From Laetmonice hystrix (Eukaryota): a DNA stretch of 64,000 bases. Location: positions 1,366,001-1,430,000 of the forward strand of contig OZ249436.1 of the NCBI GenBank assembly GCA_965235115.1. Reading direction: 5' to 3'. The translations under genes were made by a program, and so were the position numbers. Below the pieces are notes generated by a model, which had not been told where the DNA came from, made no database searches, and saw only the letters and a list, made by a program, of their open reading frames with translations. Of the stretch, positions 24,950-59,794 are shown one piece after another. Every line of letters begins with the position of its first letter. Position 1 is the first letter of the stretch.

Positions 24950-26496
24950 GTCCTGCACCGTAAATTGGGAACTTGGGAGGTCATCCAGTTCAACCCCCAC
25001 TTGAAACCCCAGAACATGTTATTATATCGTTCTAGGTGATAAAAGTGTGGGCAGTTAGTCTTAATATTTATGCAAACCCGAATGTTATAAAAATAAATCA
25101 TTATTTTATAGTTAGAAAGTGTTATTTTAGAGCGCTGCTGCTCAAAAACCAGTGTACTGGCCGGGTGTCTTGGGCTGGTAGAGCCGTCAACACGTTCGTT
25201 GTCATCGCTTGGGCCAGAGACTGGCCGGCGATAACGTCCTCATAATCTGCATTGGCTACAATTTTATAGCCTGGGTTCGATCTGTTTGTGCTTTCATTGT
25301 CACTTGTGACATCATAGAATAGTTAACTACGTATTTTGATACATAATATTACAATGTTTCACTGACAAAAAGACGGTGCGTGCCTCGTTAAGTCAACTGT
25401 GGCTGTGACGTCATAGATAGGACGTGCGGCACAGTCGTGACGACTAACGTAGACTGCACTATTTTGCTGTCTAGCTCTCGTTTTATTGAAAGATGGATTA
25501 AAATACTACAGAAGCAGAGACTTCGAAGGTCAGTAGATAGTCTCAGAAAATTATAGCATTATAATACCTCCGTAAACATCACTGTAGGCCTCTGATCCTC
25601 CACAGCTTAGATTGGAGCCTGGCTGTCTATTGTGATATTTAACGTCATTATGGAAGTTTTGGGAACTTTTAAATTTCCAAACAAAGCTCGCTGTATTCAA
25701 AACTATAAGGAATCTCGCTAAAAGAAAGATATCTATGGAAACCTTACGATGTGGGGAATAATTCTGGGTACTTTTTTGTACAGGTCGTCGCGACAGATTT
25801 TGCGTGACAAACGCTCGAATCTCGAAAGGTCATGAGTTTTGCGACTTTTTGAGAAACTTCTACGTTTTTCAAACACCTCTGTAGAAATTATAACTTAGCA
25901 ACCTGGTGTAATTTTTATACTGATAAATAGCCTGCAGTCTCTAGTTTTATTTGCTACCATTCCTTAAGTAATTGACTGAGATTCCGCGTCACGACAAGGG
26001 TTTTGATGCGCCGATGTTGAAAAAACTAAGTTTTTAGTTCCCAAAACTCGGTGCAGGATTATAGTACTGTCTGTTGATAAATGGTGAGCAACAAGAAAGG
26101 TGGCAGAGATGGACTTTGGTCTCGAGAGTCTCTCGTGAAGATTTACAACTTGAGCAACACACTTCAGTGATACAAGGTAGGGTGTCTGACTGCATGATGG
26201 AAACAAGATTGTATGTAATCTCGGATCTCTTTTTCCCCATACCCACCCCTCAATTCCCTCTTTATTCCATTGGTCGTAATGGTTGTGATAATTATGTTGT
26301 ATGGCTCCAAGTAATGTCCTCATGAGTTTTATCGTTTTTATATCTAATTCGCCTTGTGCATTCAATCGTGTTTTATATGGTGTTTTATAAAAAAGGCAAA
26401 TAGAATATATCTTATAACACTTCTCGTTCTACTGCGTGTTCAATTATCCGAGAATGTCATAATGGAAGACGACGGTTGCTCCTCCTGTGCTCCATA

Positions 26497-27137
26497 TATC
26501 GGGTGTCCCAGAAAGAGTGAACCGCTTTTTGACAAGTATTTTCTCGGTGATAGATAAACCGAATTCATTGAAGATTTCCACACTGTAACCTTAGGTTATC
26601 ATCAACTAGTCTGCAAAATATCGAAAAGATCTGACAGAAATTTTGCGAGTATTGTCAAATTCAAAACAGCATGTCAAAAAATCTGATATCAAAGGAAAAC
26701 ACTTATTTCAGTTTATGCTCAATGTGGCCTCCATCTTCCTTCACGACTAAAAGAAGCCGTTTCTTTCAAGCAGAAATGCTTTTATGTATTTCTTCCATCG
26801 ATATCTTCTCCCATGACATAATTATCCTGTCCTTTAACACCTGCTCGGTCAATTTGTCTCTCAGTCCCCGGTAAACTTTCTCCTTCTGAGAGTTCCATAT
26901 GGCATAATCCATGAACATGATGTATGTCACATTGCACAGTTTTGATATCGGATTTTTTGACATGCTGTTTTGAATTTGACAATACTCGCATAAGTTCTGT
27001 CAGATCTTTTAGATATTTTGCAGACTTGTTGATGATACCCTAAGGTTATTGTGTGAAAATTTTCAATGAATTCGGTTTATCTATCACCGAGAAAATACTT
27101 GTCAAAAAGCGGTTCACTTTTTCTGGGACACCCGATA
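26497..27137 (-). mobile_element. Non-autonomous Tc1/mariner element retaining the transposase C-terminus
   Basis: ~195-bp TIRs (tatcgggtgtcccagaaa...), TA duplication. Core translates to MDYAIWNSQKEKVYRG...SISA*KKRLLLVVKEDGGHIEHKLK. Confidence 0.88.
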
Positions 27138-27246
27138 TATATTTATCATATTTTCTATTGTTGATGATAATTTTCCATCTACTATCCACAAACGAGGCAA
27201 CAGGTTATTGTATGCCGTATAATCATCATGATGCTTCATTCCGGTG

Positions 27247-35163: not shown

Positions 35164-35657
35164 CTCAAGGCCTTAACTTCATCATAACGACCCCCTACAT
35201 GTTTATATCTCGATCCTGTACGATCCCCCCATCCATCACATGAGGTAAATCATGTTAAGGTAGGCTACATGACTTGAATCCCGATAGCGACAGACATGAC
35301 CTAAATACGTTCATGTATACTTGACGTAAATTATTGGTAAGGATTATGAAGATTTTTTCGATTATGATGTAGGAAACTCTGATAACATATAATATATGTA
35401 ATGTCAGCCATTCCGATGTTTTCGAAGTGGAAGGTACATGCATGCTAACACCTGGAGAGCTACTAGAATTACGTATATCCAATTTAAAGTGATTTAAAAC
35501 GTAATAATTCCATTCCATGACGTTCCATGACGTACTTCCTCCTATGGAAAGTCAGGATTTCCCCCCATGGTAGGACAACAGCCGATCCTAACGACCTGGG
35601 ACTAGGTCACCTAATGATAAAGCAATCTTTTATTCAGTTAATAATTTAGTGATGTTA

Positions 35658-35902
35658 TCAGTTAGCGGCCTCTGTCGCCTTCTCCACGTCCTTGTCCTCC
35701 TTGCCTGGCACGGTGCCGTACGTTTTCCCGGTGTTGTTAACGGTGTCCGTCTCTCCGTGACCGGCGCCGTCCTCCGACTGTTCGGGGTCTGGGTGGGAAC
35801 CGATCACCCAGCGCATGAAACGGTACGGGACTCTGGCCAGCCCACACGTTAACTCTGTCACGACGGTCAGGCATGGCGCCAGACATGGGCAGCAACATTT
35901 AC
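35658..35902 (-). CDS. Cys-rich membrane protein (TAXIMIN-like), terminal exon; total 157 aa
   Basis: Acceptor tgttgtgttgtctcag|GT, CKCCCPCLAPCLTVVTELTCGLARVPYRFMRWVIG...EAAN*. AATAAA on minus strand at 35629-35634. Confidence 0.8.
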
Positions 35903-36310
35903 CTGAGACAACACAACAAACAAAACATCGTTAAATAACGACCGGAGAAAACGGCAGTCTGGCCAGTCCACACGTTAACTCTGTCACGACTGTCAGGCAT
36001 GGCGCCAGACATGGGCAGCAACATTTACCTGAGACAACACAACAAAACATCGTTAAATAACGACCCGAGAAAACGGGAGTCTGGCCAGTCCACACGTTAA
36101 CTCTGTCACGACTGTCAGGCATGGCGCCAGACATGGGCAGCAACATTTACCTGAGACAACAAACAAAACATCGTTAAATAACGACCCGAGAAAACGGGAG
36201 TCTGGCCAGTCCACACGTTAACTCTGTCACGACCGTCAGGCATGGCGCCAGACATGGGCAGCAACATTTACCTGAGACAACACAACAAACAAAACATCGT
36301 TAAATAACCA
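35828..36310 (-). repeat. Four ~121-126-bp tandem copies of an intron end plus exon start
   Basis: Acceptor ttgtctcag|GTAAATG with exon starts at 35902, 36028, 36150 and 36271. Confidence 0.93.
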
Positions 36311-37092
36311 CCGGACAATTGGCCTGGCATAGCGCGGTATACACGCAGTTGTAGTAGGCCCATACGGACCTATAATAATGGCGCCTATAGTGCTGACTCG
36401 GCTGACGTTATTGACCAGCATAGCTTACATTTTGTGGGAGAAAACCAGGGAGCCTAACGGGTAATATGAGTGGGTGTGTGTGTGGGGGGGGGGGCAGGTT
36501 ATAAAGGTTATGCATGTAGTACATTGACTGGTCCATCAGGCCTACATCGAGGCCATATGTTTGCCAGGCGCGGATCCAAAGGCTCTCTTTTTGAAGAAGT
36601 TACAACAACTATTGGTAGGCTGAGTCTAAATGCATTGAGAATTAAGAATTTCTATCTGCAGATGCCGGGAAATAGCGGGGTTTATGTTTGGGTCTTCTAA
36701 ATTCAAAGATTTATGGGGAAGGACCCCCTGCAGACCCCCCCCCCCCCTCATGTCGGGAAATATATATAACGTTGTTTGGCCAATTCTAAATTCAAAAATT
36801 ATCTAAGAGAGAACCCTTATACCCCCCCCCCCCCCGGCGCATGCATGATCGCCTGGTGCTGTCCGTGCCCGAGGGCGCCCCCCCCCCTTCGTTCAGTGCT
36901 GGATCCTGTTTAGTCCTATGGATCTATAAGGCTAATAGTATGATGATCCCACCACGGCTGCTATAGACCTGACATAAAGTCTCATAATGATGATCCCACC
37001 ACGGCTGCTATAGACCTGACATGTATTTCCTGGTAGGATGAAGATGAAAATAACTGGATATCAATCATGATGTTAATAATACGAGATATGAA

Positions 37093-39123
37093 ACTTACAT
37101 GGTGTTAGAACGACTCACACAACTATAGCCACCACTCCTGTGACTACCAGGAACGGGAAGGCGAGAATCAATGTGAGACTTACATGGTGTTAGAACGACC
37201 CACACAACTATAGCCACCACTCCTGTGACTACCAGGAACGGGAAGGCGAGAATCAATGTGAGACTTACATGGTGTTAGAACGACCCACACAACTACAGCC
37301 ACCACTCCTGTGACTACCAGGAACGGGAAGGCGAGAATCAATGTGAGACTTACATGGTGTTAGAACGACCCACACAACTATAGCCACCACTCCTGTGACT
37401 ACCAGGAACGGGAAGGGGAGAATCAATGTGAGACTTACATGGTGTTAGAACGACCCACACAACTATAGCCACCACTCCTGTGACTACCAGGAACGGGAAG
37501 GCGAGAATCAATGTGAGACTCACATGGTGTTAGAACGACCCACACAACTATAGCCACCACTCCTGTGACTACCAGGAACGGGAAGGCGAGAATCAATGTG
37601 AAACTTACATGGTGTTAGAACGACCCACACAACTACAGCCACCACCCCTGTGACTACCAGGAACGGGAAGGCGAGAATCAATGTGAGACTTACATGGTGT
37701 TAGAACGACCCACACAACTATAGCCACCACTCCTGTGACTACCAGGAACGGGAAGGCGAGAATCAATGTGAGACTTACATGGTGTTAGAACGACCCACAC
37801 AACTACAGCCACCACTCCTGTGACTACCAGGAACGGGAAGGCGAGAATCAATGTGAGACTTAAATGGTGTTAGAACGACCCACACAACTACAGCCACCAC
37901 TCCTGTGACTACCAGGAACGGGAAGGCGAGAATCAATGTGAGACTTACATGGTGTTAGAACGACCCACACAACTATAGCCACCACTCCTGTGACTACCAG
38001 GAACGGGAAGGCGAGAATCAATGTGAGACTTACATGGTGTTAGAACGACCCACACAACTATAGCCACCACTCCTGTGACTACCAGGAACGCTAAGGCGAG
38101 AATCAATGTGAGACTTACATGGTGTTAGAACGACCCACACAACTATAGCCACCACTCCTGTGACTACCAGGAACGGGAAGGCGAGAATCAATGTGAGACT
38201 TACATGGTGTTAGAACGACCCACACAACTACAGCCACCACTCCTGTGACTACCAGGAACGGGAAGGCGAGAATCAATGTGAGACTTCCATGGTGTTAGAA
38301 CGACCCACACAACTATAGCCACCAGTCCTGTGACTACCAGGAACGGGAAGGCGAGAATCAATGTGAGACTTACATGGTGTTAGAACGACCCACACAACTA
38401 CAGCCACCACTCCTGTGACTACCAGGAACGGGAAGGCGAGAATCAATGTGAGACTTACATGGTGTTAGAACGACCCACACAACTACAGCCACCACCCCTG
38501 TGACTACCAGGAACGGGAAGGCGAGAATCAATGTGAGACTTACATGGTGTTAGAACGACCCACACAACTACAGCCACCACTCCTGTGACTACCAGGAACG
38601 GGAAGGCGAGAATCAATGTGAGACTTCCATGGTGTTAGAACGACCCACACAACTATAGCCACCAGTCCTGTGACTACCAGGAACGGGAAGGCGAGAATCA
38701 ATGTGAGACTTACATGGTGTTAGAACGACCCACACAACTACAGCCACCACTCCTGTGACTACCAGGAACGGGAAGGCGAGAATCAATGTGAGACTTACAT
38801 GGTGTTAGAACGACCCACACAACTACAGCCACCACTCCTGTGACTACCAGGAACGGGAAGGCGAGAATCAATGTGAGACTTACATGGTGTTAGAACGACC
38901 CACACAACTATAGCCACCACTCCTGTGACTACCAGGAACGGGAAGGCGAGAATCAATGTGAGACTTACATGGTGTTAGAACGACCCACACAACTATAGCC
39001 ACCACTCCCGTGACTACCAGGAACGGGAAGGCGAGAATCAATGTGAGACTTACATGGTGTTAGAACGACCCACACAACTATAGCCACCACTCCTGTGACT
39101 ACCAGGAACGGGAAGGCGAGAAT
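37093..39123 (-). repeat. 24 x 85-bp tandem copies of an exon end plus splice donor
   Basis: The donor site (acttac on +) recurs every 85 bp from 37093 to 39048; a few copies are mutated. Confidence 0.97.
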
Positions 39124-39215
39124 GAAGGCAAGTCCCCTGCAGAACCCGAGACAGCAGCGGGCTGTCGCACTCCTCTCCCGGCGGGCCCCCTCCTCCTTGT
39201 CATTGGCAGCCGTGT
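39054..39215 (-). CDS. Cys-rich membrane protein (TAXIMIN-like), second coding exon with transmembrane segment
   Basis: Acceptor tttcttgctgccttccctgcag|, 162 nt, phase 1-1, ...ARCCLGFCRGLAFILAFPFLVVTGVVAIVVWVVLTP, donor T|gtaagt. Confidence 0.8.
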
Positions 39216-39629
39216 CTGCAGGGAAGGCAGCAAGAAATATATGACTCTCTGAGAGCCGCCGAGAGTAAGAACGGGCCCTGGGGCAAAACATAAAATATAA
39301 CATTAACAATGAGGATTAAAATCGATTTATAATCCGCTATGTTGAAATCTATTAAGGAACCTGAGCAGATTCTATATACTGTTGGTTCCACGGTACATGA
39401 TGTGCATAATATTATCTCTTAAATTAGATCCATTTTTACACTTTACATATTTTTTAACATAAAGTACGCATCGATCTAGTAGTTTTGAACAACTTTATTC
39501 ACCAACCTTTGCAAGATACCATGCCTCGTATAGAATTAGACCCCATTACCTGTCAGAATTGGTGTACAGTTTCAGGAATGGGAGTTCTGTTGTACATGAA
39601 AAGATGTCAACGTTTAGATCTACACTCAC

Positions 39630-39696
39630 GTGTTATGCCGTCCGGGGCCGTAGTGGGTGTGTCCTCTGTCAGTGGTTTCTTATCTCCGTCAGTCAT
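39630..39696 (-). CDS. Cys-rich membrane protein (TAXIMIN-like), first coding exon
   Basis: Acceptor ttctttcag| (exon starts 39709), ATG at 39696, MTDGDKKPLTEDTPTTAPDGIT, phase-1 donor C|gtgagt. Confidence 0.7.
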
Positions 39697-39814
39697 AATG
39701 AATCCACCTCTGAAAGAATCTGTTCTCTGACAGGGTTAGAATCCGTAATGTTAACTGTTGTATACTAATGCGACATTGATATATGTTATCGTTTTATTCT
39801 TTCGTAGTTTTGTT

Positions 39815-40040
39815 TTTATTTTTGTTTTCGTTTTGGTTGTTTTTTGTTTGGTTTTTGGTTTTTCTCTCCCTAAACTTTTTCAGTCGATGAGATCCTTTGT
39901 GACTGGGTGGCTATTCATTGGGTGAACCGTCAGAATTTATTTATTTTTGTTTTTTTGTTTTTTTGTTTTGTTTTTTGTTTTTCTCTCCCTAAACTTTTCC
40001 AGCCGATGAGATCCCTTATGACTGGGAGGGTTATCATTGA
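39815..40040. repeat. Two diverged ~119-bp tandem copies
   Basis: T-rich tract plus ttctctccctaaacttt...gatgagatcc...gactggg, twice. Confidence 0.8.
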
Positions 40041-41347
40041 CATTAGAACTAGCACCTGTGTGAGCAGCTGCTAGACACACCGGTCTGATCGTGACATACC
40101 AGACTGATCCGGGGATATTTATGTCAAACTTATGTCATTGTACAATGCTGGTTCTTTGTCTCAGCTAAAAAAAACAGCTGTAATCGTTTGTAACGTTGTG
40201 TGTGTGTGCTCACCCAACAACATGAAGCATGAGAACAGCTTTTATAGAACAAAACGACGCCTCATTGTTGATCTTAAAAAAGTCGCCAATTCGTTTGTTT
40301 TCAATGCATGAAATATATTCAAAGATGGCGAATTGAAAGAGTCAAACTATTTACAATTATTAATAATATTGTATACAGATCACTGTTGGCATCGATGATT
40401 GAAACAGATTAATGTAGAATAGGTTTGTTTGTTACATCCATCATTACCGATTACATTTACGGGTTAGTATTAATGTCATTAATAATCGTTGATTGTTTAT
40501 GCCATAACTACCAACGCTCAAGGCGCGTTTATTGAAATTATAGGGAATGTAGCGTTCGTCTTTCTATTTACAATCGAGGTGCGTCGCTTCCATTAGGCCC
40601 TGTAAGCACGTGCCTACACATTTTTCCCACAAATGAAAAAATTAAAACAAAGACAAAATGCAAAACAATAAGAGGAGATGGCGGTAATAGGTCTAGGGTA
40701 TGTGTAAAATTAAGTTAAAAATAGATTCTAAAAAGTATTAGAATTTCCTTTTCCTAAACGCTCCGATCGCTGGGGTTTTTTATTGAGCCTCAAAGTCATA
40801 CCCGGGTTGACAACATGTGCCAATACCCCAGACCCCCCCCCCCCCCCCTGCAAAAAGTGCCTACACGTTTATTTCAGCCAAGCTACGCCCCTGAAATTGA
40901 AGGTTGATTCAAACAACCCTGTCGAGAACGTTATCGCTACGATCGCTTTCCCCGCCACAGTCGTGTTTTCGGTCGGCATGTTTTGATCACGCCACAGTCC
41001 ACACTTCATACCGGCACTACCATCTTGGACGTCTCAGCCATAAACAGAAGCACAATACGGAAAAAGTAAAATTCAGTCAAACTACATATCCCCACCATGT
41101 CAACGAATGCTGTGTACTCAGGCAGTGGAGACATGTTGATGACATAACACCCGGAAACCTCGTACAACAAGACGTTCATGTCAGCGAGTCATTATTGTTC
41201 GATCGGTTTTGGTTTTATATCATGCTATCAGCACCTCATCTTTACGGCCAGTATGAACTGACGTTTAGAAATGCCAACACGGCCCCATATGACATCAAGT
41301 ACATCTCTGCATGATATCATATCAAACTCACACGTCTAAAAGCTCAC

Positions 41348-41440
41348 CTTTCAGAAACCGTTGACAGAGTCCGACATGGGGTTCCTTGGTGTCAGTACTG
41401 TGTCGTCCCGTCACAGTTCAGTCACAGGTCAAGTCTTGGT
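41348..41440 (-). other. Candidate 5'-UTR exon of the TAXIMIN-like gene (5' boundary unknown)
   Basis: Strong donor AAG|gtgagc at 41347, upstream of the acceptor at 39710. Confidence 0.35.
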
Positions 41441-42542
41441 GTTGTCGATGTGAAGGTCGCCCTTCAGGAGACCTTTAAAAGTTACGTGCCATTTTTTCCG
41501 ACACACAGTTGTGAATTTTTCATTTGTTGTGACCAATTGAAACATATGGCACCAAGTATGGATGGCCGGGCAATTATGGACTCAACCAGGCCACTGGTCG
41601 TGAGAGCAGATGTATTAAAGTCATTACCCCAGCATGCCCATCAAATTGATTTCATACATGACATTTAAACGTGGCTGCCCTGTAAATTCACATTGAGGCG
41701 TGTTGCTCTCGATGTTCACTCGCTGGGAAAGCCCTAAATAACTCAGATATGTTTTATTGAATGCCTGATGCGTGAATTAGACATGTGCATATACGAATAA
41801 CGTAGGCCTAATCTTAAACTGTCAGTGATAATTTGATCTTCGCCGTCTCTCCCTATTATATACCGTCATTTATGTGATAGGCAGGCCGAGCTCAGGGTGT
41901 CTAGTATGCCCCTTTTGTATAACAATATACCCTGTATCAGTATATATATGTCTGAAAGTCCGGGCGCAGCTGAAGTGAATGGATTATGGTTGTGTATAAT
42001 CTCGTATCCCATAGATCCCACAAGGGTTCCAAGCGCAGACATCATGTTTTTCAAGGAACACTCAAAGGTATACACTCGTTACGTAAACCCGTCGACCTGA
42101 CTGCGAGCAGCGGAGTGTTGGGCCGAGCGCCGAGCCGGCCCCGAGTGGACCCCGAGTGGGCGCCGAGTGAGCTCCGAGCGGGTCCCGAGTGGTGGGGTGG
42201 GGGATTGGATTCCAGGTAGGTGACTAAAACAGACCACCGGGGTGCCTAGAAGTGCACCGAGTGCGCCCCAGTCCCACCGAGAGTTTCACGTCGACGGTTC
42301 GCACTCGACCGACTATAAAGTAATGTTGAAATATCCATGTGTATGATCACGATATTATTGAGGTACACAGTAGTGAACACAATTATAAAAAATATTAGAG
42401 ATGTTTAAATATTTTTAATTAGAAAGCCGGTTGCCGTTGTAGGGTCAGATAAAGAAAATTAATTCCTTCTATATGATTACCGTTTAATTAGCAATAATGA
42501 GATAGATATACCCATCAATCTTAAATTCCTGCAGAAATACAC

Positions 42543-44308: not shown

Positions 44309-44611
44309 GTATTGTAACCATTTACACATGTAGGTAGCCTAGGCCTATAGCAACCAACAGAATAGTTCATCGGCTGAGGTTACTGTAGATGTTTAAATAT
44401 CACACAATACAATATTTCTTTGACCCTAGGTTACTCCACACGAGTCCATCCCTGCCCTCTCTGATCTACAGCCGAGCCTCATCGCCTCCTGGGTAACGAC
44501 TGACGCCAGCCACGTCGCGATTTCTTCCAACTCCGTCACTTTTTGTCCCTCATTCACGTGGAGATATCGTTGCCATCGCCGCGGCAGCAGGAGCGCCCCC
44601 TTGTGGACAGA

Positions 44612-45211
44612 ATGCGCGAGGCTGAGCGACGCCTTCGCAAGGAAAATGATGAGTACCTTGAGAAGATGAAGACGATCCTGACTGCCCCACGGAGGGGCGC
44701 CAGTAAGAGCTCCTACATGCCGGCTGAACTACTCGAGTTCCTCTACATCGGAAACATGGCCGAGGCTCGGAACCCACATCTGTTAAAACGTTTAAAGATT
44801 ACACACGTCTTAAACTGCGCCGGCGATCCTGACGAGGACTTCGATAGAAACAACCCGTATGACTTCGACAGGACCGGGGTGGTCGCCTACGAGGAGTTTC
44901 AAGCTCTGGACAATGATGGCTACCAGATGCTGAAACATTTCCGTAGGGCGCGTAGGTTTATTAACGAGGCTCGGGACAGCGGTGGGCGGGCACTAGTCCA
45001 TTGTCAGTTAGGGGTGAACCGTAGCGGATGTATCTGTATTGCTTACATCATGCTAGAACTCGGTATCACCCTCCTGGAGACCCTCCGGATGGTGAAACTC
45101 CACCGGCCAGTCATACTCTGTAATGAAGGCTTTCAGAAAGAACTTATAGATTTCGGTCGGGAACATGACCTCTTGTACAAGGAGGACACTCCCACGTTGT
45201 CCTTCACCTAA
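44612..45211 (+). CDS. Atypical dual-specificity protein phosphatase (DSPc domain only), ~199 aa, single coding exon
   Basis: Motifs FLYIG, ITHVLNC, acid-loop Asp (ALDN), P-loop VHCQLGVNRS (HCxxGxxRS), IAYIM, RPVILCNEGF. First ATG at 44612, in-frame stops upstream, acceptor ttctttgaccctag at 44429. Confidence 0.92.
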   Translation: MREAERRLRKENDEYLEKMKTILTAPRRGASKSSYMPAELLEFLYIGNMAEARNPHLLKRLKITHVLNCAGDPDEDFDRNNPYDFDRTGVVAYEEFQALDNDGYQMLKHFRRARRFINEARDSGGRALVHCQLGVNRSGCICIAYIMLELGITLLETLRMVKLHRPVILCNEGFQKELIDFGREHDLLYKEDTPTLSFT

Positions 45212-45997: not shown

Positions 45998-46589
45998 CAA
46001 CCGCTAATGTAATAACGCCCACTATTGTAATAACTGGAGTGCTAGGGGGTACCGGGGAAGTACCACCAGAGTACCGGACAGGACCAGGGGAGCATTTTTA
46101 GGGTACCCTCTGAGTACCCTCTGGGTACCCCCTGGGTACCCAGAGGGTACCAACCGGGGGGTACCCGGGAAATACTACTGGAGTACCGGACAGGACCAGG
46201 TGAGCATTTTGGGGGTACCCTCTGAGTACCATGTGGTACTTCCCTGGTACCCCCTAGCACCCCAGTTATTACAATAGCGGTTGCGTTCGCCAGAATTCGC
46301 AACCGCTATTGTAATAAAACTTTGTTCAAGGGCTACCGACCAGATCGGTACCTAAGGGTACCCAGGGGTACCCAGATGGTACTCAGAGGGTACCCCCAAA
46401 ATGCTCACCTGGTCCTGTCCGGTACTCCAGTAGTATTTCCCTGGTACCCCCCCCCCCCCGGTTGGTACCCTCTGGGTACCCAGAGGGTACTCAGAGGGTA
46501 CCCCAAAAATGCTCCCCTGGTCCTGTCCGGTACTCTGGTGGTACTTCCCTGGTACCCCCCTAGCACCCCAGTTATTACAATAGCGGTTG
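45998..46589. mobile_element. Two oppositely oriented MITE copies forming a ~600-bp inverted repeat
   Basis: TIR caaccgctattgtaataa at four positions; internal accggacaggaccagg versus cctggtcctgtccggt; TA at the outer ends. Confidence 0.75.
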
Positions 46590-47088
46590 TAACAGTGCAT
46601 GCACTGGGCACAACGGTAAATATCGCTCCTTCACAATATAAGTGGTTATATTTTCACAAGGACTGACTGTTGTAGAAAGAAAGTTATGTAGGGAGCCCCC
46701 TAAAAAAAGGGGCAGTCGTCATTTATTAGAAATGTGTATGATAGAACAAGTACTGCGTGTTGGGTTGAAGATTTTATACTGTAGTACTATTTCTTGTAAA
46801 TAAATATCTATTATCCCAGTTCGTTTAACAAAGGAAATGGGATTTTAAAATGGTCTGGCTTCGTCTCCACGTTTCGTATTTCCTATTTCCCCTGTCAGGG
46901 AATTGTATAATATTGCGATGCTCCAGGCTACTCAGTATACCTTCGAAATCTGTCGTATACTGCAGATTCCAACCCTGCTCCCATTCTCAGTGTGTGTGTG
47001 TGTGTGGGGGGGGGGGGGGGTCCCTACTGTATAGCTATATTTGATACATGAAATATGTCGTGTATAGTATGCAGATTTCAATCCTGTT

Positions 47089-48708
47089 CCCATGTTATGT
47101 AAGTTTCCTCACCTAGAGCATTGTAACGTCCATAGCTATCCTTGATACGTGATATCCCATGTTATGTAAGTTTCCTCACCTATAGCATTCTAACGTCCAT
47201 AGCTATCCTTGATACGTGATAGCCCTTGTTATGTAAGTTTTTTCACCTAGCGTCCTAACGTCCATAGCTATCCTTGATACGTGATATCTCACGTTATGTA
47301 AGTTTCCTCACCCAGCATTCTAACGTCCATAGCTATCCTTGATACGTGATATCCCATGTTATGTAAGTTACCTCACCCAGCATTCTACGTCCATAGCTAT
47401 CCTTGATACGTGATATCCCATGTTATGTAAGTTACCTCACCCAGCATTCTACGTCCATAGCTATCCTTGATACGTGATATCCCATGTTATGTAAGTTACC
47501 TCACCCAGCATTCTAACGTCCATAGCTATCCTTGATACGTGATATCCCATGTTATGTAAGTTACCTCACCTAGCATTCTAACGTCCATAGCTATCCTTGA
47601 TACGTGATATCCCATGTTATGTAAGTTACCTCACCCAGCATTCTACGTCCATAGCTATCCTTGATACGTGATATCCCATGTTATGTAAGTTTCCTCACCT
47701 AGCATTCTAACGTCCATAGCTATCCTTGATACGTGATATCCCTTGTTATGTAAGTTACCTCACCCAGCATTCTAACGTCCATAGCTATCCTTGATACGTG
47801 ATATCCTATGTTATGTGAGTTACCTCACCCAGCATTCTGTGTCCATAGCTATCCTTGATACGTGATATCCCATGTTATGTAAGTTACCTCACCCAGCATT
47901 CTAACGTCCATAGCTATCCTTGATACGTGATATCCTATGTTATGTGAGTTACCTCACCCAGCATTCTGTGTCCATAGCTATCCTTGATACGTGATATCCC
48001 ATGTTATGTAAGTTTTCTCACCCAGCATTCTACGTCCATAGCTATCCTTGATACGTGATATCCCAGGTTATGTAAGTTTTCTCACCCAGCATTCTACGTC
48101 CATAGCTATCCTTGATACGTGATATCCCATGTTATGTAAGTTTCCTCACCTAGCATTCTAACGTCCATAGCTATCCTTGATACGTGATATCCCATGTTAT
48201 GTAAGTTTCCTCACCTAGCATTCTACGTCCATAGCTATCCTTGATACGTGATATCCTATGTTATGTGAGTTACCTCACCCAGCATTCTACGTCCATAGCT
48301 ATCCTTGATACGTGATATCCCATGTTATGTAAGTTACCTCACCCAGCATTCTGTGTCCATAACTATCCTTGATACGTGATATCTCATGTTATGTAAGTTA
48401 CCTCACCCAGCATTCTACGTCCATAGCTATCCTGGATACGTGATATCCCATGTTATGTAAGTTTCCTCACCTATAGCATTCTAACGTCCATAGCTATCCT
48501 TGATACGTGATATCCTATGTTATGTAAGTTTCCTCACCTAGCGTTCTAACGTCCATAGCTATCCTTGATACGTGATATCCCATGTTATGTAAGTTTCCTC
48601 ACCTAGCGTTCTAACGTCCATAGCTATCCTTGATACGTGATATCTCATGTTATGTAAGTTTCCTCACCTAGCGTTCTAACGTCCATAGCTATCCTTGATA
48701 CGTGATAT
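47089..48708. repeat. Minisatellite, 64-65-bp unit, ~25 copies
   Basis: cccatgttatgtaagtttcctcacctagcattctaacgtccatagctatccttgatacgtgatat. Confidence 0.97.
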
Positions 48709-49178
48709 CGTATATGTACGCTCGGGTTTGTACTTCTCCGCGATCAATGGGGTTCTCTGTGTGAGTATCGCATTCCACAGCCGTAATTCATTATGCAAGT
48801 TACAATGACGGTAATGGCAATGAGGACAGGGAGACATACTTTGTAGCCAGACAGACAGACACACATACAGACAGACAGACAGAGAGACAGACAGAGGCAG
48901 AGAGACACAGAAAGATGTAGAAAGAGAGAGCAAAAAGTATAGTTGCATAAAGTAGAGCATTCATCTTTATTTTCTTCTTCTTCTTCTTCTTTCCTTTTTG
49001 CGTTTAAAATCAATAAAGAAGAAAAAAAACAATCTGGTCTGGCGTCTGAGACACGAGAACCCATGGCACTGGTAGCCACCATTTGGCGCTATTCCACCGC
49101 GACCTCCGCCGCTGACGGAGACTATGGTTTGTATTACCACGTCACTTTACAATAATCTCATTGGGTATCATAACATCC

Positions 49179-56516: not shown

Positions 56517-56520
56517 CTAG

Positions 56521-56729
56521 CAGGTACCAAAAACAAAAGGTCATTTAATGAATTTATCATCACATTGATAAAAAAAAAGTGACACTGACATCTTCTGCCA
56601 ACGCTAACAGGTACCAAAAACAAAAGGTCATTTAATGAATATTTATCATCATATTGATAAAAAAAAAGTGACACTGACATCTTCTGCCAACGCTAACAGG
56701 TACCAAAAACAAAAGGTAATTTAATGAAT
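56521..56729. repeat. ~2.4 x 87-89-bp tandem repeat filling the first cGLR coding intron
   Basis: caggtaccaaaaacaaaagg at 56521, 56608 and 56697. Confidence 0.9.
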
Positions 56730-56746
56730 ATATAGCCTATACTTAC

Positions 56747-58962
56747 ATAGCCCATCCTTCACCTCGCTTGACCGCTTCCTCTAGACCTTGCTGGGCATAG
56801 CACTCGCCCGTGACGACTCGGTGTGCGAACTTTGTCACGTGGGCAAGGTCCTTGCACAGTAGCCGTTCATTGATGTCTTCCACAAACCAAGCATTCTCCA
56901 GTGAACCGGCCTGCAGGTCCCGAAGATAACTGGTCAAAGCAGCAGCCAGACGCTCCGTAGACTCACACGGCTGCGTCTTGTTGGGCGTCTTCTTTTCTTC
57001 TACAAATGTTCTCAAAACACACACAAGCCGTTCAGCTGTCTTCCCAGGTTCCCAGTGCTTTTCGCCTTTGTGACTTTCAAGTTCTTCCACAGCTGCACGT
57101 TGAAGCGACTGACAAGTGGTTCGTTCAAGTGACTGACTGGCTGAGAACATTTGGATCTGTTCCAAGATGAAGTTTATGAGACGTAGTAAACGGTCAGCAC
57201 CTTGCGTTCTCACAGTATCCACCGAACTAATCACTCCGCGCACAGACTTCCGGTCAATTAACTCTGTTTTCATTGGTCGCGTGTCAAGGAATCCCAGAAC
57301 TTCCGTGAAGACAAGGTTCAGATATGTAACCTGCCTTTCAGTAAAGTTGAATTCCGAGTCATCCTTATCAATACAAGCCTTTTGTTTGGCTATCTGACAA
57401 AACCAAAGTGATGCAAGATCGTTTTCAAAAGCAATGCTAGACTCAAGGTTAGTGTCAATGCCAATTTGAAATGTTTGTTGCTTTGAGAAACCGTGCATCC
57501 GCCTGAGACAATTCGTAAGAATATTGAAATCACTGGTGCACAGATTTAATGTCAGGCCCTTCTTCAACAGAACATTAAGTTCAGAGAAGAAATAGCTTCT
57601 CATGTGTTTCCGCTGCAAAGCTTTTAATAGACTTCTCACTATGCTGAGAACACGGACACTGACACCTGACTCGAGCCAGTCGCCGACGTCTGAATAGGTC
57701 TCCAGCTCAAATAGAAACAGCGTCTTCAAAGCATAAGAACTTATAAGATGAAGGGGACTCGAGTTTGGTTCAGAGGTTGATGGGGGGATAAGTACGTCAA
57801 AATCCGTCCCGAAATCCTTAAAAGAAGATGGGTCTGACAAAAGTCCTGTTATTATTTTAGTTATCCTCATCACTTTAGCAGGGATGCTGCAATGGTCATA
57901 ATGTGTCATCAGTTCCATCTCAGCTGTGGAGTTTGAAATACGCCACAGCGAATCCTTCGCCTCACATACGATACTTTCGTGCGGTCCAGTTCCCACGACA
58001 TAAAATCCCTTCTGAGACGCGCGGTAAAAGTTCACAGCATCGACATGAGACAACGCAATTCGGTCCGGAAAGTCGCTCCGCGTTGGCCACCCCACAAAGC
58101 CAATGCTGAGGGTGAGGTCGACAGATACGTTGTGCGACTCGGGAAGTTCCTCCGTGGGAGGGACATAGATTTCAAGTCTTACGGCTGGTCCGTCCTGTAA
58201 GACCTTGATAGAGAAATCTCTCGGCTCCGGGAACACGTCCTGCTCCGGGTCACCGATCCCGATAAATACGTGCTGCTTGGAACCAATATTAAAAATATCC
58301 GACAATGTCCCGACATCAAGGACCTTTCCTGATGCCCCTGGAAGGTCACACTCATTGACGTTTTCCATTGAAACTGGTATAGCCTTGACTACCCAGCGAA
58401 TCAGCTCAAAGAACCGCTGTCGTATTTTGTGGGGGAGCAGGCAACCATCAGCATCCATGAATTCTGACCAGTCCTTGAACAGAGACGGTCGGCTGCGTTC
58501 GTTAACTTGAACACGTGCAAAACCTGATGGAACTGTTTCCGGGTCGTCGAGAATACGACACGGGGGATTCTGGGAGCTGCCATCAAGCGCTGGGCACGAC
58601 ACCTGATTCAGTCGTATCATGAAGTCATACTCGTCCGGTCTGTTGATCTTGTAATGTTCATACGTACTTCCGGTTGGGAGGACAAACTTGGAGGCAAAAC
58701 GCGCGTCGAGTTTACCAGCTGACGTCACAAGTCGCTGTACCAGACGTTCAATGGTCGCTTCGATACTTCCTGGCACATCCATGCCCAGGAGGTTCGGCCC
58801 GCCGCCGCTAGGTGTCATGGTGCCGTAGTAACTGTTCAGTGCATGGTTACATGTTCGTTCTATGTTCGTGAAATATCGGTTTAGATATTCAAGCTCATCA
58901 TTGTCGAAGCTAAGATCGATTTCTGGCAGAACGTAACGCCTTGGGCCGTCGTTTTCTCCCAT
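56747..58962 (-). CDS. cGAS-like receptor (cGLR / Mab21-family nucleotidyltransferase), main coding exon
   Basis: 739-aa ORF with GSTYEHYKINRPDEYDFM (hGS-x-[DE]h[DE] catalytic motif), VSVDLTLSI (third acidic residue), WP, FYVV, LWRISNSTAE, ISSYALKTLFL and SYFFSELNVL, in cGAS/Mab21 order. The ORF end ATG-TAA overlaps a perfect donor (GCTAT|gtaagt, intron starts at 56746). Confidence 0.93.
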
Positions 58963-59794
58963 CTCTAGGACTAGATAATAACCTATTTAAATGAAATGAC
59001 AATCAAACCAACAGATCAAGAACTTGATATTTCAACACAGGCTGGCGCTAGAACATTTTGTGAAGTTAATTACAATAATGGCTTAACTTACAATCGAGCC
59101 TAGATTTAATGGTACGGTTGGGTAGGCCTACATTTGGTAGTCAACTGAATTCTGTTGTGCTTGGTCAGCGAAATAAGGGCCAGTCTAACAAAAGGAGGAT
59201 TTTTACTTTCTGGCAACTGGTAATAAGCATAAATCCATAGATTGGGTTAATCTCGACACTAATTACGTTCTTGCATACGGTCACATGTGTTTGTCCGAGT
59301 ATTTTAATTGTGCACAAAAACTGCGACGTCGTGTTTCTATAATTTGTCACAGAGCGCTATTACATATTATCCTCCAGTATTGAGTAGCTTTGATCTAAAT
59401 GAACTGGGCGTACCTTATTTCCAGGGAGTATAGTCCTAAGCAACGATTTCCTCTTAATGTCAACGTATGCAAGTCTTCCCAAACACAACGCAGATATTAC
59501 CTACAGTTTACACAATGTTTTAAATCGCCGCAGTGGAGCGAACAATACACGTATGTACAACCCACCTGTCGTCTAGGCACGGGCAGTTGTCCGGTTGTTC
59601 TGTACGAACAGATCGTAAGTATACTCTGATCATGACAAGAGATCCAACTGCATGGCTAACCGTGAGACACCTTACATATACAGGTAGGCCTACACCGTGT
59701 GTCTGCGTGTGTAGGCCGCACTCATCCGTGACCATGCACACTCAGCGGCTGGGGAATTTTGTTGGATCCTTTAAAAAAGTGGGTCACGCGGAGG

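What the first reader, a model, noticed from the sequence alone, without database searches (positions are those of the whole stretch)
37093..39123. A splice donor amplified 24-fold together with the TM-coding exon end
Seen: the 85-bp unit is the last ~69 nt of the exon plus gtaagtctcacattg. The distal copy (37093) continues into unique intron sequence. A few copies have broken GT sites (near 37860, 38285, 38625) and one reads gtgagt (near 37520). Only the first donor gives the full-length protein; extending the exon to any later donor leads to a stop. Inference: the spliceosome must choose among ~20 near-identical donors, so copy number could tune expression.
Basis: seen in the sequence. Interest (0 to 1): 0.7.

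Follow-up and report, generated by a model that had tools for sequence, protein, structure and literature searches.

The report
Splice-donor "mirage" minisatellite in invertebrate gene
An 85-base piece covering the end of an exon and its splice signal is repeated 24 times inside an intron of a small membrane-protein gene of an invertebrate; it is real, but it is a known kind of repeat ("mirage"), and where such repeats have been tested the first signal is used mainly or only.

Summary
The array is real: 24 copies of 85 bp (70 nt of exon end + 15 nt of intron), 21 of 24 keeping GT. Read-derived contigs show the head-to-tail unit, but do not confirm the count of 24. Homologues validate the gene: donor 1 joined to the last acceptor aligns without gaps across the junction, and a relative has the same phase-1 intron without an array. 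This is a boundary-spanning minisatellite, known from human F7, IFI6, CBS and ABCA7 and from amphioxus "mirages". In F7 minigenes the first donor won at every copy number tested. Most likely it is a tolerated by-product of a repeat-rich genome (37% of this window); tuning by donor competition is unsupported. No RNA run was listed, so donor use is untested here. This scan noted the same kind of array many times elsewhere in this genome and in others. Side lead: the protein probably belongs to the TAXIMIN family, described as plant-specific.

The parts
37089..39123 (-). Donor array: 24 x 85 bp, each 70 nt of exon-3 end + 15 nt of intron start; copy 1 (39039-39123) holds the authentic donor (first intron base 39053)
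   Evidence: head-to-tail unit seen in read-derived contigs
39054..39215 (-). Exon 3 (162 nt, phase 1 at both ends); codes the hydrophobic segment (19-residue hydropathy peak 2.6)
   Evidence: aligns with P0002 and P0011 (0 of 1000 shuffles reach the score) and weakly with P0010 (34 of 1000)
35903..39053 (-). Intron 3, 3151 nt: about 1955 nt extra donor copies, 776 nt unique middle, about 367 nt extra acceptor copies
   Evidence: same position and phase in relative L001, where it is 256 nt without an array
35825..36312 (-). Acceptor array: 4 x ~121 bp, each the intron end + about 78 nt of exon-4 start; acceptors at 36271, 36150, 36028, 35902; only the last is continuous with the rest of exon 4
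35658..35902 (-). Coding part of exon 4 (probable last exon): CCCPC motif, second hydrophobic stretch, charged tail, stop at 35658-35660; AATAAA at 35629-35634
   Evidence: 11 proteins at E <= 0.001, 10 of them sharing the Cys motif
39630..39726 (-). Predicted exon 2 with start codon at 39696 and a phase-1 GTGAGT donor; its acceptor is uncertain (39726, 39719 or 39709)
   Evidence: sequence only; no homologue or RNA support for this exon
41348..41500 (-). Possible untranslated exon 1 (AAG|GTGAGC donor at 41347; 5' end unknown)
   Evidence: sequence only; inference
37184..39013 (-). Acceptor-like site inside every internal unit (branch-like motif, 13 of 16 pyrimidines, TAG) 45 nt before that unit's donor; open in phase 1 with an intact GT in 19 of 23 internal units
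   Evidence: not above a synonymous re-coding null (0.37)

Best explanation
A tolerated exon-intron-boundary minisatellite ('mirage'). SHOWN: an 85-bp segment straddling the exon 3 donor is present as 24 near-identical tandem copies, and a 121-bp segment straddling the exon 4 acceptor as 4. The extra copies lie on the intron side, so the first donor and the last acceptor still give the conserved 157-aa protein. INFERRED, origin: a short tandem duplication arose by slippage or unequal repair, as for some two dozen other arrays in this window. It was expanded and homogenised by unequal crossing-over or conversion, with the edge copy left out. INFERRED, splicing: the spliceosome defines the 162-nt exon at the first donor; later donors would make exons of 247, 332 ... 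2117 nt and are rarely used, with leakage limited to copies 2-3. Donor 3 and beyond place the stop at least 81 nt upstream of the last junction and should be removed by nonsense-mediated decay; donor 2 would escape it and give a minor 105-aa truncated product. Because only the nearest copies can compete, going from a few to 24 copies should change donor choice little.
For: Unit anatomy and register. Homologues found with exon 4 alone align without a gap over 73-98 residues across the donor 1/last acceptor junction; a profile without window sequence ranks this join first of 13 models. Same intron in a relative with no array at either end (L001) and none at the acceptor in another (L002). Concerted evolution: mean 1.6 differences among copies 1-23, 5 in copy 24, a shared two-variant type in copies 6 and 10; the same pattern is described for amphioxus mirages (PMC3087553). 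27 arrays cover 23,719 of 64,000 bases. The decoys nearest the exon (2-5) are all intact, as expected if they are harmless. Precedent: first donor only in F7, LMNB2 and PDGF; first plus two more in IFI6 and CBS (PMC1557585); normal mRNA in amphioxus Adh3, globin and troponin C mirages.
Against: No transcript data for this gene, so first-donor use is borrowed from mammals and amphioxus. Both ends of one intron lying in arrays has a naive chance of 0.011-0.031 (6-10 sites, 2.8% per site), a post hoc hint that arrays favour splice junctions. 2 of 12 distinct variant alleles hit the GT (p 0.03) and 3 of 12 the GTAAGT (p 0.048), a weak post hoc hint of selection against decoys. ABCA7 shows that the length of such a repeat can track expression (33% lower at the longest) and exon skipping.
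Confidence: 0.74

Rival explanations
1. Length-dependent rheostat. Longer arrays divert transcripts to non-productive forms or slow removal of intron 3, by donor competition, by sequestering U1 snRNP or by adding protein-binding sites, so array length sets the protein level.
For: 20 extra intact donors, all identical or near-identical to the real one; every extension is frameshifted. ABCA7: expression and exon 19 skipping follow repeat length (PMC5954066). IFI6 and CBS use two extra donors (as cited in PMC1557585).
Against: F7: donor choice unchanged with 1-6 and 8-12 copies. ABCA7: retention of one unit was not affected by length. Relative L001 has no array, so it is not a conserved control element. 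No length polymorphism was shown here.
Confidence: 0.13
2. Cassette bank. The acceptor-like site inside each unit pairs with that unit's donor to give a 45-nt in-frame exon adding 15 hydrophobic residues, so later donors can be used without a stop. This would be the intron-gain route proposed for mirages, caught in action.
For: Branch-like motifs at -31 and -25, 13 of 16 pyrimidines and TAG, comparable with the real acceptors of exons 3 and 4 (14 and 11 of 16); open frame and intact GT in 19 of 23 internal units; 0.0008 of base shuffles give such a cassette. One cassette keeps the family match (94.5 bits). Model proposed in PMC3087553.
Against: The fair null, synonymous re-coding of the same hydrophobic codons, gives it in 0.37 of trials. 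The same site sits inside the real exon. It is T-poor (5 of 16 against 7-11 in the coding-exon acceptors). Adjacent units would leave 40-nt introns, short for an animal (own knowledge). No full-length homologue in alignment A4 shows a tandem copy of this segment.
Confidence: 0.06
3. Splice junctions themselves seed such arrays in this lineage (for example through transcription- or splicing-linked breaks), so the two arrays at the ends of one intron are not a coincidence.
For: Both ends of intron 3 are amplified (naive p 0.011-0.031); a possible third case at the 3' end of the Mab-21 gene.
Against: The window was selected for this feature. GTRAG occurs in 7 of 22 arrays against 4.3 expected from shuffles, not a clear excess. 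Most arrays here cannot be tied to any exon. No genome was held to test this.
Confidence: 0.15
4. Assembly artefact or inflated copy number.
For: The three runs are one sample, possibly the source of the assembly; no listed piece spans the array; normalised depth differs about threefold between runs.
Against: A 115-nt contig covering the unit plus 30 nt at about ten to twenty times flank depth, and a loose end reading into the next unit; shared variant patterns among copies.
Confidence: 0.03

Closest known systems
Human F7 intron 7 37-bp VNTR (Borensztajn et al. 2006, PMC1557585; read parts 1-2 of 6 and 12 search passages)
   Same: First monomer spans the exon-intron boundary; the authentic donor is followed by identical pseudo-donors.
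   Different: F7: 4 nt of exon, 5-9 copies, tested in minigenes. Here: 70 nt of coding exon, 24 copies, an invertebrate, untested; the acceptor of the same intron is repeated too.
Human IFI6 (6-16; 25 pseudo-sites), CBS intron 13 (15-20 copies), LMNB2 (100 bp x 10-15), PDGF intron 4 (81 bp x 16-18); known to me only as cited in the Introduction of PMC1557585
   Same: Same geometry; LMNB2 and PDGF have similar unit length and copy number and use only the authentic donor; IFI6 and CBS leak to the two nearest copies.
   Different: Mammalian; original papers not seen.
Amphioxus 'mirage' minisatellites: globins BflGb6 and BflGb9 (PMC3087553, 6 passages read), PGBD5 (PMC3902484, 4 passages read), Adh3 and troponin C (as cited there, not seen)
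   Same: Tandem copies of exon-intron boundaries at either the 5' or the 3' end, homogenised inside with edge copies left out, most copies keeping the splice signal, in a repeat-rich marine invertebrate.
   Different: Different lineage (best named hits here are annelids); more copies than the globin and PGBD5 cases; donor and acceptor of one intron both amplified.
Human ABCA7 intron 18 25-bp VNTR (De Roeck et al. 2018, PMC5954066, 12 passages read)
   Same: Each unit begins with the donor GT; one-unit retention gives an out-of-frame transcript.
   Different: No exon sequence in the unit; 12-427 copies; length correlates with expression and exon 19 skipping but not with second-donor use.
TAXIMIN peptides, Pfam PF28483 (host protein; PMC4526920, 12 passages read)
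   Same: Hydrophobic, cysteine- and proline-rich core; the closest named homologue (annelid P0002, 49 of 99 aligned residues identical) carries a precomputed PF28483 hit and has TAXIMIN clusters as its top three atlas neighbours.
   Different: 157 aa with charged extensions at both ends; the hydrophobic segment starts near residue 45 rather than at the N-terminus; no plant sequence was aligned directly.

Membership tests
Boundary-spanning minisatellite ('mirage', F7 type) | Head-to-tail tandem array with a minisatellite-sized unit | tested here: met
   85 bp x 23.9, 97% matches; head-to-tail junction in read-derived contigs
Boundary-spanning minisatellite ('mirage', F7 type) | Unit spans a real exon-intron boundary, with the authentic site in the terminal copy | tested here: met
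   Gap-free alignment to homologues across donor 1; same intron position and phase in L001
Boundary-spanning minisatellite ('mirage', F7 type) | Many but not all copies keep the splice signal | tested here: met
   21 of 24 keep GT; 4 of 4 acceptor copies keep the AG
Boundary-spanning minisatellite ('mirage', F7 type) | Concerted evolution within the cluster, boundary copy excluded | tested here: met
   Mean 1.6 differences among copies 1-23; copy 24 has 5
Boundary-spanning minisatellite ('mirage', F7 type) | Normal splicing at the authentic site is largely undisturbed | not testable with these tools
   No RNA holder listed
Boundary-spanning minisatellite ('mirage', F7 type) | Length polymorphism or somatic instability | tested here: inconclusive
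   One sample only; contig depth is not a copy number
TAXIMIN peptide family (PF28483) | Match to the family profile | tested here: inconclusive
   Precomputed PF28483 hit (no score shown) on 5 homologues: P0002, P0006, P0011, P0013, P0042; atlas score 0.85 for P0002, a lead only. The window's separate exons gave no Pfam hit and exon 4 no atlas hit; P0002 itself gave none in the local Pfam copy, which probably lacks this model (inference).
TAXIMIN peptide family (PF28483) | N-terminal secretion signal followed by a 46-residue mature peptide ending the protein | tested here: not met
   Model has about 40 polar residues before the hydrophobic segment and a charged tail of about 45 after the core; feature taken from PMC4526920
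TAXIMIN peptide family (PF28483) | [quoted passage not shown] | tested here: inconclusive
   7 Cys at residues 77-96 and invariant prolines among homologues, but no plant sequence was retrieved to align
Recursive-splicing (ratchet) site | Acceptor AG directly followed by a donor-like GT | tested here: met
   All 4 acceptor copies begin GTAAAT; joining donor 1 to any of them recreates CAT|GTAAAT
Recursive-splicing (ratchet) site | Stepwise use shown by intermediates or lariats | not testable with these tools
   No RNA data

The most novel reading that the evidence does not exclude
Intron 3 is a length-variable splicing switchboard. The 23 extra units supply up to 19 in-frame 45-nt cassette exons that lengthen the membrane segment, the 4 acceptor copies are resolved by stepwise re-splicing because each recreates the donor, and array length sets the amount or isoform mix of an animal TAXIMIN-like membrane peptide.
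Probability: 0.07. Interest if true: 0.65.

Novelty: new member of a known kind. Interest (0 to 1): 0.22.

Why it matters
As it stands it is a clean extra example of a known oddity. It is a natural test of 'first donor wins' outside mammals and amphioxus, with both ends of one intron amplified, and a hazard for gene annotation and read mapping. If length did tune output, or cassette exons were used, it would show a minisatellite turning into a regulatory or coding device and would make the mirage model of intron gain directly testable. The side lead, a likely TAXIMIN-family gene in annelids and echinoderms, would matter to plant peptide biologists, because the family was published as plant-specific.

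Tried and rejected
No whole genome is held, so genome-wide enrichment of arrays at splice sites could not be tested. No RNA holder listed among 3 runs; this says nothing about expression. Contig depth was not used as a copy number: the window's array predicts a mean of 15.8 copies per consensus 31-mer, and the observed ratios differ about threefold between runs. RNA structure as a guide to donor choice: exon 3 plus two units folds no better than shuffles (z +0.99, 164 of 200 fold as well). Pfam on 102 reading frames of the window (of 590 stop-to-stop frames of 45 aa or more listed) found credible domains in two only, a dual-specificity phosphatase and a Mab-21 protein. The atlas search with exon 4 alone gave no usable hit. 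Two profile searches did not retrieve a named plant TAXIMIN (word-filtered, and only 8000 candidates scored). Splice motifs in the window's arrays: GTRAG in 7 of 22 against 4.3 expected; the acceptor pattern found 1 of 22 against 3.1 expected and missed the true acceptor array, so it is too crude to use. The 45-nt cassette looked striking against base shuffles (0.0008) but not against synonymous re-coding (0.37), so it was rejected as evidence of design. A transposon or dispersed-repeat origin: neither unit has a copy elsewhere in the window; the rest of the genome was not searchable. A first donor model was off by one base and was corrected. Literature: no paper on this kind of array in annelids came up; the 19 papers holding 'taximin' (listings only, one read in passages) showed no animal study by title or abstract start. 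The library lacks most subscription papers, and no supplements were read.

Full report
VERDICT. The array is real and correctly described. It is a new example of a known kind of repeat, the exon-intron-boundary minisatellite or 'mirage'.

1. THE OBSERVATION. Tandem Repeats Finder reports 37089-39123, period 85, 23.9 copies, 97% matches and no indels. On the minus strand there are 24 units in exact register. Each holds the last 70 nt of an exon and the first 15 nt of the intron. 20 of 24 donors read GTAAGT, 1 of 24 GTGAGT (37523), and 3 of 24 have lost GT (38628, 38288, 37863). Copies 1-23 differ by 1.6 bases on average. Copy 24 differs from the consensus at 5 positions, 4 of them in its last 9 bases. 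Copies 6 and 10 share two variants, so the three broken donors are probably two events.

2. IS IT IN THE READS? Three public runs hold the locus, all of one sample and none on record as RNA. I laid their contigs on 39039-41588, which holds one unit. They cover introns evenly, as DNA would. The unit bin has depth 1799, 432 and 445, against about 50-60, 32-47 and 33-40 on unique flanks. One 115-nt contig at depth 429 covers the 85-nt unit plus 30 nt, which is what a tandem unit leaves in a 31-mer assembly graph (inference). A loose end after 39123 reads into the next unit. So the tandem structure does not depend on the long-range assembly. The number 24 is not confirmed: the tool warns that depth is no copy number, no piece spans the array, and these runs may be the source of the assembly.

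3. THE GENE. The model on the minus strand is exon 2 (start codon 39696, donor after 39630), exon 3 (39215-39054, 162 nt) and exon 4 (from 35902, stop at 35658, AATAAA at 35634), giving 157 aa with one strong hydrophobic segment and a cysteine cluster. Exons 1 and 2 rest on sequence alone. A search with exon 4 alone found 11 proteins at E <= 0.001, among them an annelid and a sea-urchin protein. Three full-length hits align to the model without a gap over 73, 98 and 73 residues across the exon 3/exon 4 junction, although exon 3 was not in the query. A profile of nine homologues with no window sequence ranks donor 1 + last acceptor first of 13 models: 101.5 bits, against 78-79 for upstream acceptors and 29.5 for donors 2 or 3. 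Of 82 pattern matches in a metagenome collection, 2 encoded a relative. L001 has the same intron at the same position and phase, 256 nt long, with no array; L002 shows the same acceptor position, with no array there. The neighbouring phosphatase has annelids as its only named hits (2 of 24), so the organism is probably an annelid (inference).

4. (a) The acceptor of the same intron is repeated too: 4 copies of about 121 bp at 35825-36312. Copies 1-3 give a 108-aa product that loses the family's invariant tryptophan; only the last gives 157 aa. Each copy begins GTAAAT, so joining donor 1 to any of them recreates a donor, and a second splicing step to the last acceptor would repair the message (use is inferred, not shown). 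(b) The later donors are not equivalent. With donor 2 the stop ends 4 nt after the junction; with donor 3 and beyond it lies 81 nt or more before it. By the usual 50-55-nt rule (own knowledge) only the latter would be degraded. (c) Each unit also holds an acceptor-like site 45 nt before its donor, open in frame with an intact GT in 19 of 23 internal units, so a later donor could in principle be used without a stop. Base shuffles give this in 0.0008 of trials, but synonymous re-coding of the same hydrophobic codons gives it in 0.37, so it follows from the protein sequence.

5. IS IT MORE THAN CHANCE? The array itself is far beyond chance. Its position on a splice site is less special: 27 arrays cover 23,719 of 64,000 bases. 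A given site has about a 2.8% chance of lying in a terminal unit, and two of 6-10 sites a chance of 0.011-0.031, in a window chosen for this feature. GTRAG occurs in 7 of 22 arrays against 4.3 expected. Two of 12 distinct variant alleles hit the GT (p 0.03, post hoc), yet decoys 2-5, where selection should act most, are intact. No genome was held for a proper test.

6. HOW IT MOST LIKELY WORKS (0.74). A short duplication across the boundary arose like the other arrays, expanded and was homogenised. It persists because the extra copies fall into the intron. The first donor defines a 162-nt exon; later ones would define 247, 332 ... 2117 nt and are seldom used (inferred). Only the nearest copies can compete, so total copy number should matter little for donor choice. 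Rivals: junction-seeded arrays (0.15, compatible with the main reading), a length rheostat (0.13), a cassette bank (0.06), an artefact (0.03).

7. WHAT IS KNOWN. Borensztajn et al. 2006 (PMC1557585; parts 1-2 of 6 and 12 passages read) describe the human F7 37-bp repeat whose first unit spans the boundary. [quoted passage not shown] Their Introduction lists IFI6 (25 pseudo-sites, two nearest also used), CBS (two also used), LMNB2 (100 bp x 10-15) and PDGF (81 bp x 16-18), the last two using only the authentic site; I did not see those originals. The amphioxus globin paper PMC3087553 (6 passages) uses the name 'mirages', shows them at both 5' and 3' boundaries, reports concerted evolution with edge copies excluded and undisturbed splicing, and proposes a model of intron gain. 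PMC3902484 (4 passages) adds PGBD5 and cites Adh and troponin C. In ABCA7 (PMC5954066, 12 passages) repeat length tracked expression and exon 19 skipping but not one-unit retention. PMC10078293 (12 passages) catalogues repeats linked to splicing in humans and added nothing specific. Searches found no paper on such arrays in annelids, in a library that lacks most subscription journals; no supplements were read. Earlier notes of this scan report the same kind of array repeatedly in this genome and in others; they gave me the term 'mirage' and the paper, which I then read, and are not counted as evidence.

8. THE HOST PROTEIN. Five homologues carry a precomputed PF28483 hit, which the atlas names TAXIMIN; the annelid homologue's top three atlas neighbours are plant TAXIMIN clusters (score 0.85, a lead). 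Only one of the five is a named animal protein. TAXIMIN was published as plant-specific (reference title in PMC4526920). The window's protein is longer and lacks an N-terminal signal, and no plant sequence was aligned, so membership is probable, not shown.

9. SCORES. Interest 0.22; new member of a known kind. Most novel reading not excluded (cassette exons, stepwise acceptor repair and length-set output): probability 0.07, interest 0.65 if true.

Noticed in passing
window 35658-39696 (-); homologues P0002, P0010, P0014, P0015: The host protein has relatives in an annelid, two sea urchins and a starfish; the annelid one carries a precomputed TAXIMIN (PF28483) hit, a family published as plant-specific. 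Probable animal branch of the family.
   Followed up: partly
window 35825-36312 (-): The acceptor of the same intron is repeated four times; every copy starts with GTAAAT, so splicing to any copy recreates a donor (possible self-correction by re-splicing).
   Followed up: yes
window 56517-56731 (-), next to the Mab-21 frame 56746-58986 (-): A Mab-21/nucleotidyltransferase-fold gene ends in a donor-like site at 56746, followed by an 89-bp repeat (2.4 copies) with three acceptor-like sites (56692, 56603, 56516): a possible third mirage in the window. No homologue test was made.
   Followed up: partly
window 44504-45208 (+): Dual-specificity phosphatase frame (PF00782, E 2e-28). Its best hit P0018 and the best hit of exon 4, P0001, both lie on a contig of 700,687 bases, which suggests the two genes are neighbours in a relative too.
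   Followed up: partly
window 47088-48709 (+): 65-bp x 25 array in which every unit has a GTAAGT donor-like site; no exon could be assigned to it.
   Followed up: no
window 39129-39249: Two haplotypes in all three runs (0 and 4 differences); the three listed differences in exon 3 all change a residue in its non-conserved first part, usable for allele-specific expression.
   Followed up: partly
whole window: 27 tandem arrays cover 37% of the window; units of 24-121 bp, up to about 80 copies.
   Followed up: partly
window 40569-40908: Very high contig depth and many loose ends: a dispersed high-copy element inside the predicted first intron.
   Followed up: no
window 46008-46630 and 26440-27140: Stretches that look like long inverted-repeat (foldback) elements on reading; not tested with a tool.
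   Followed up: no
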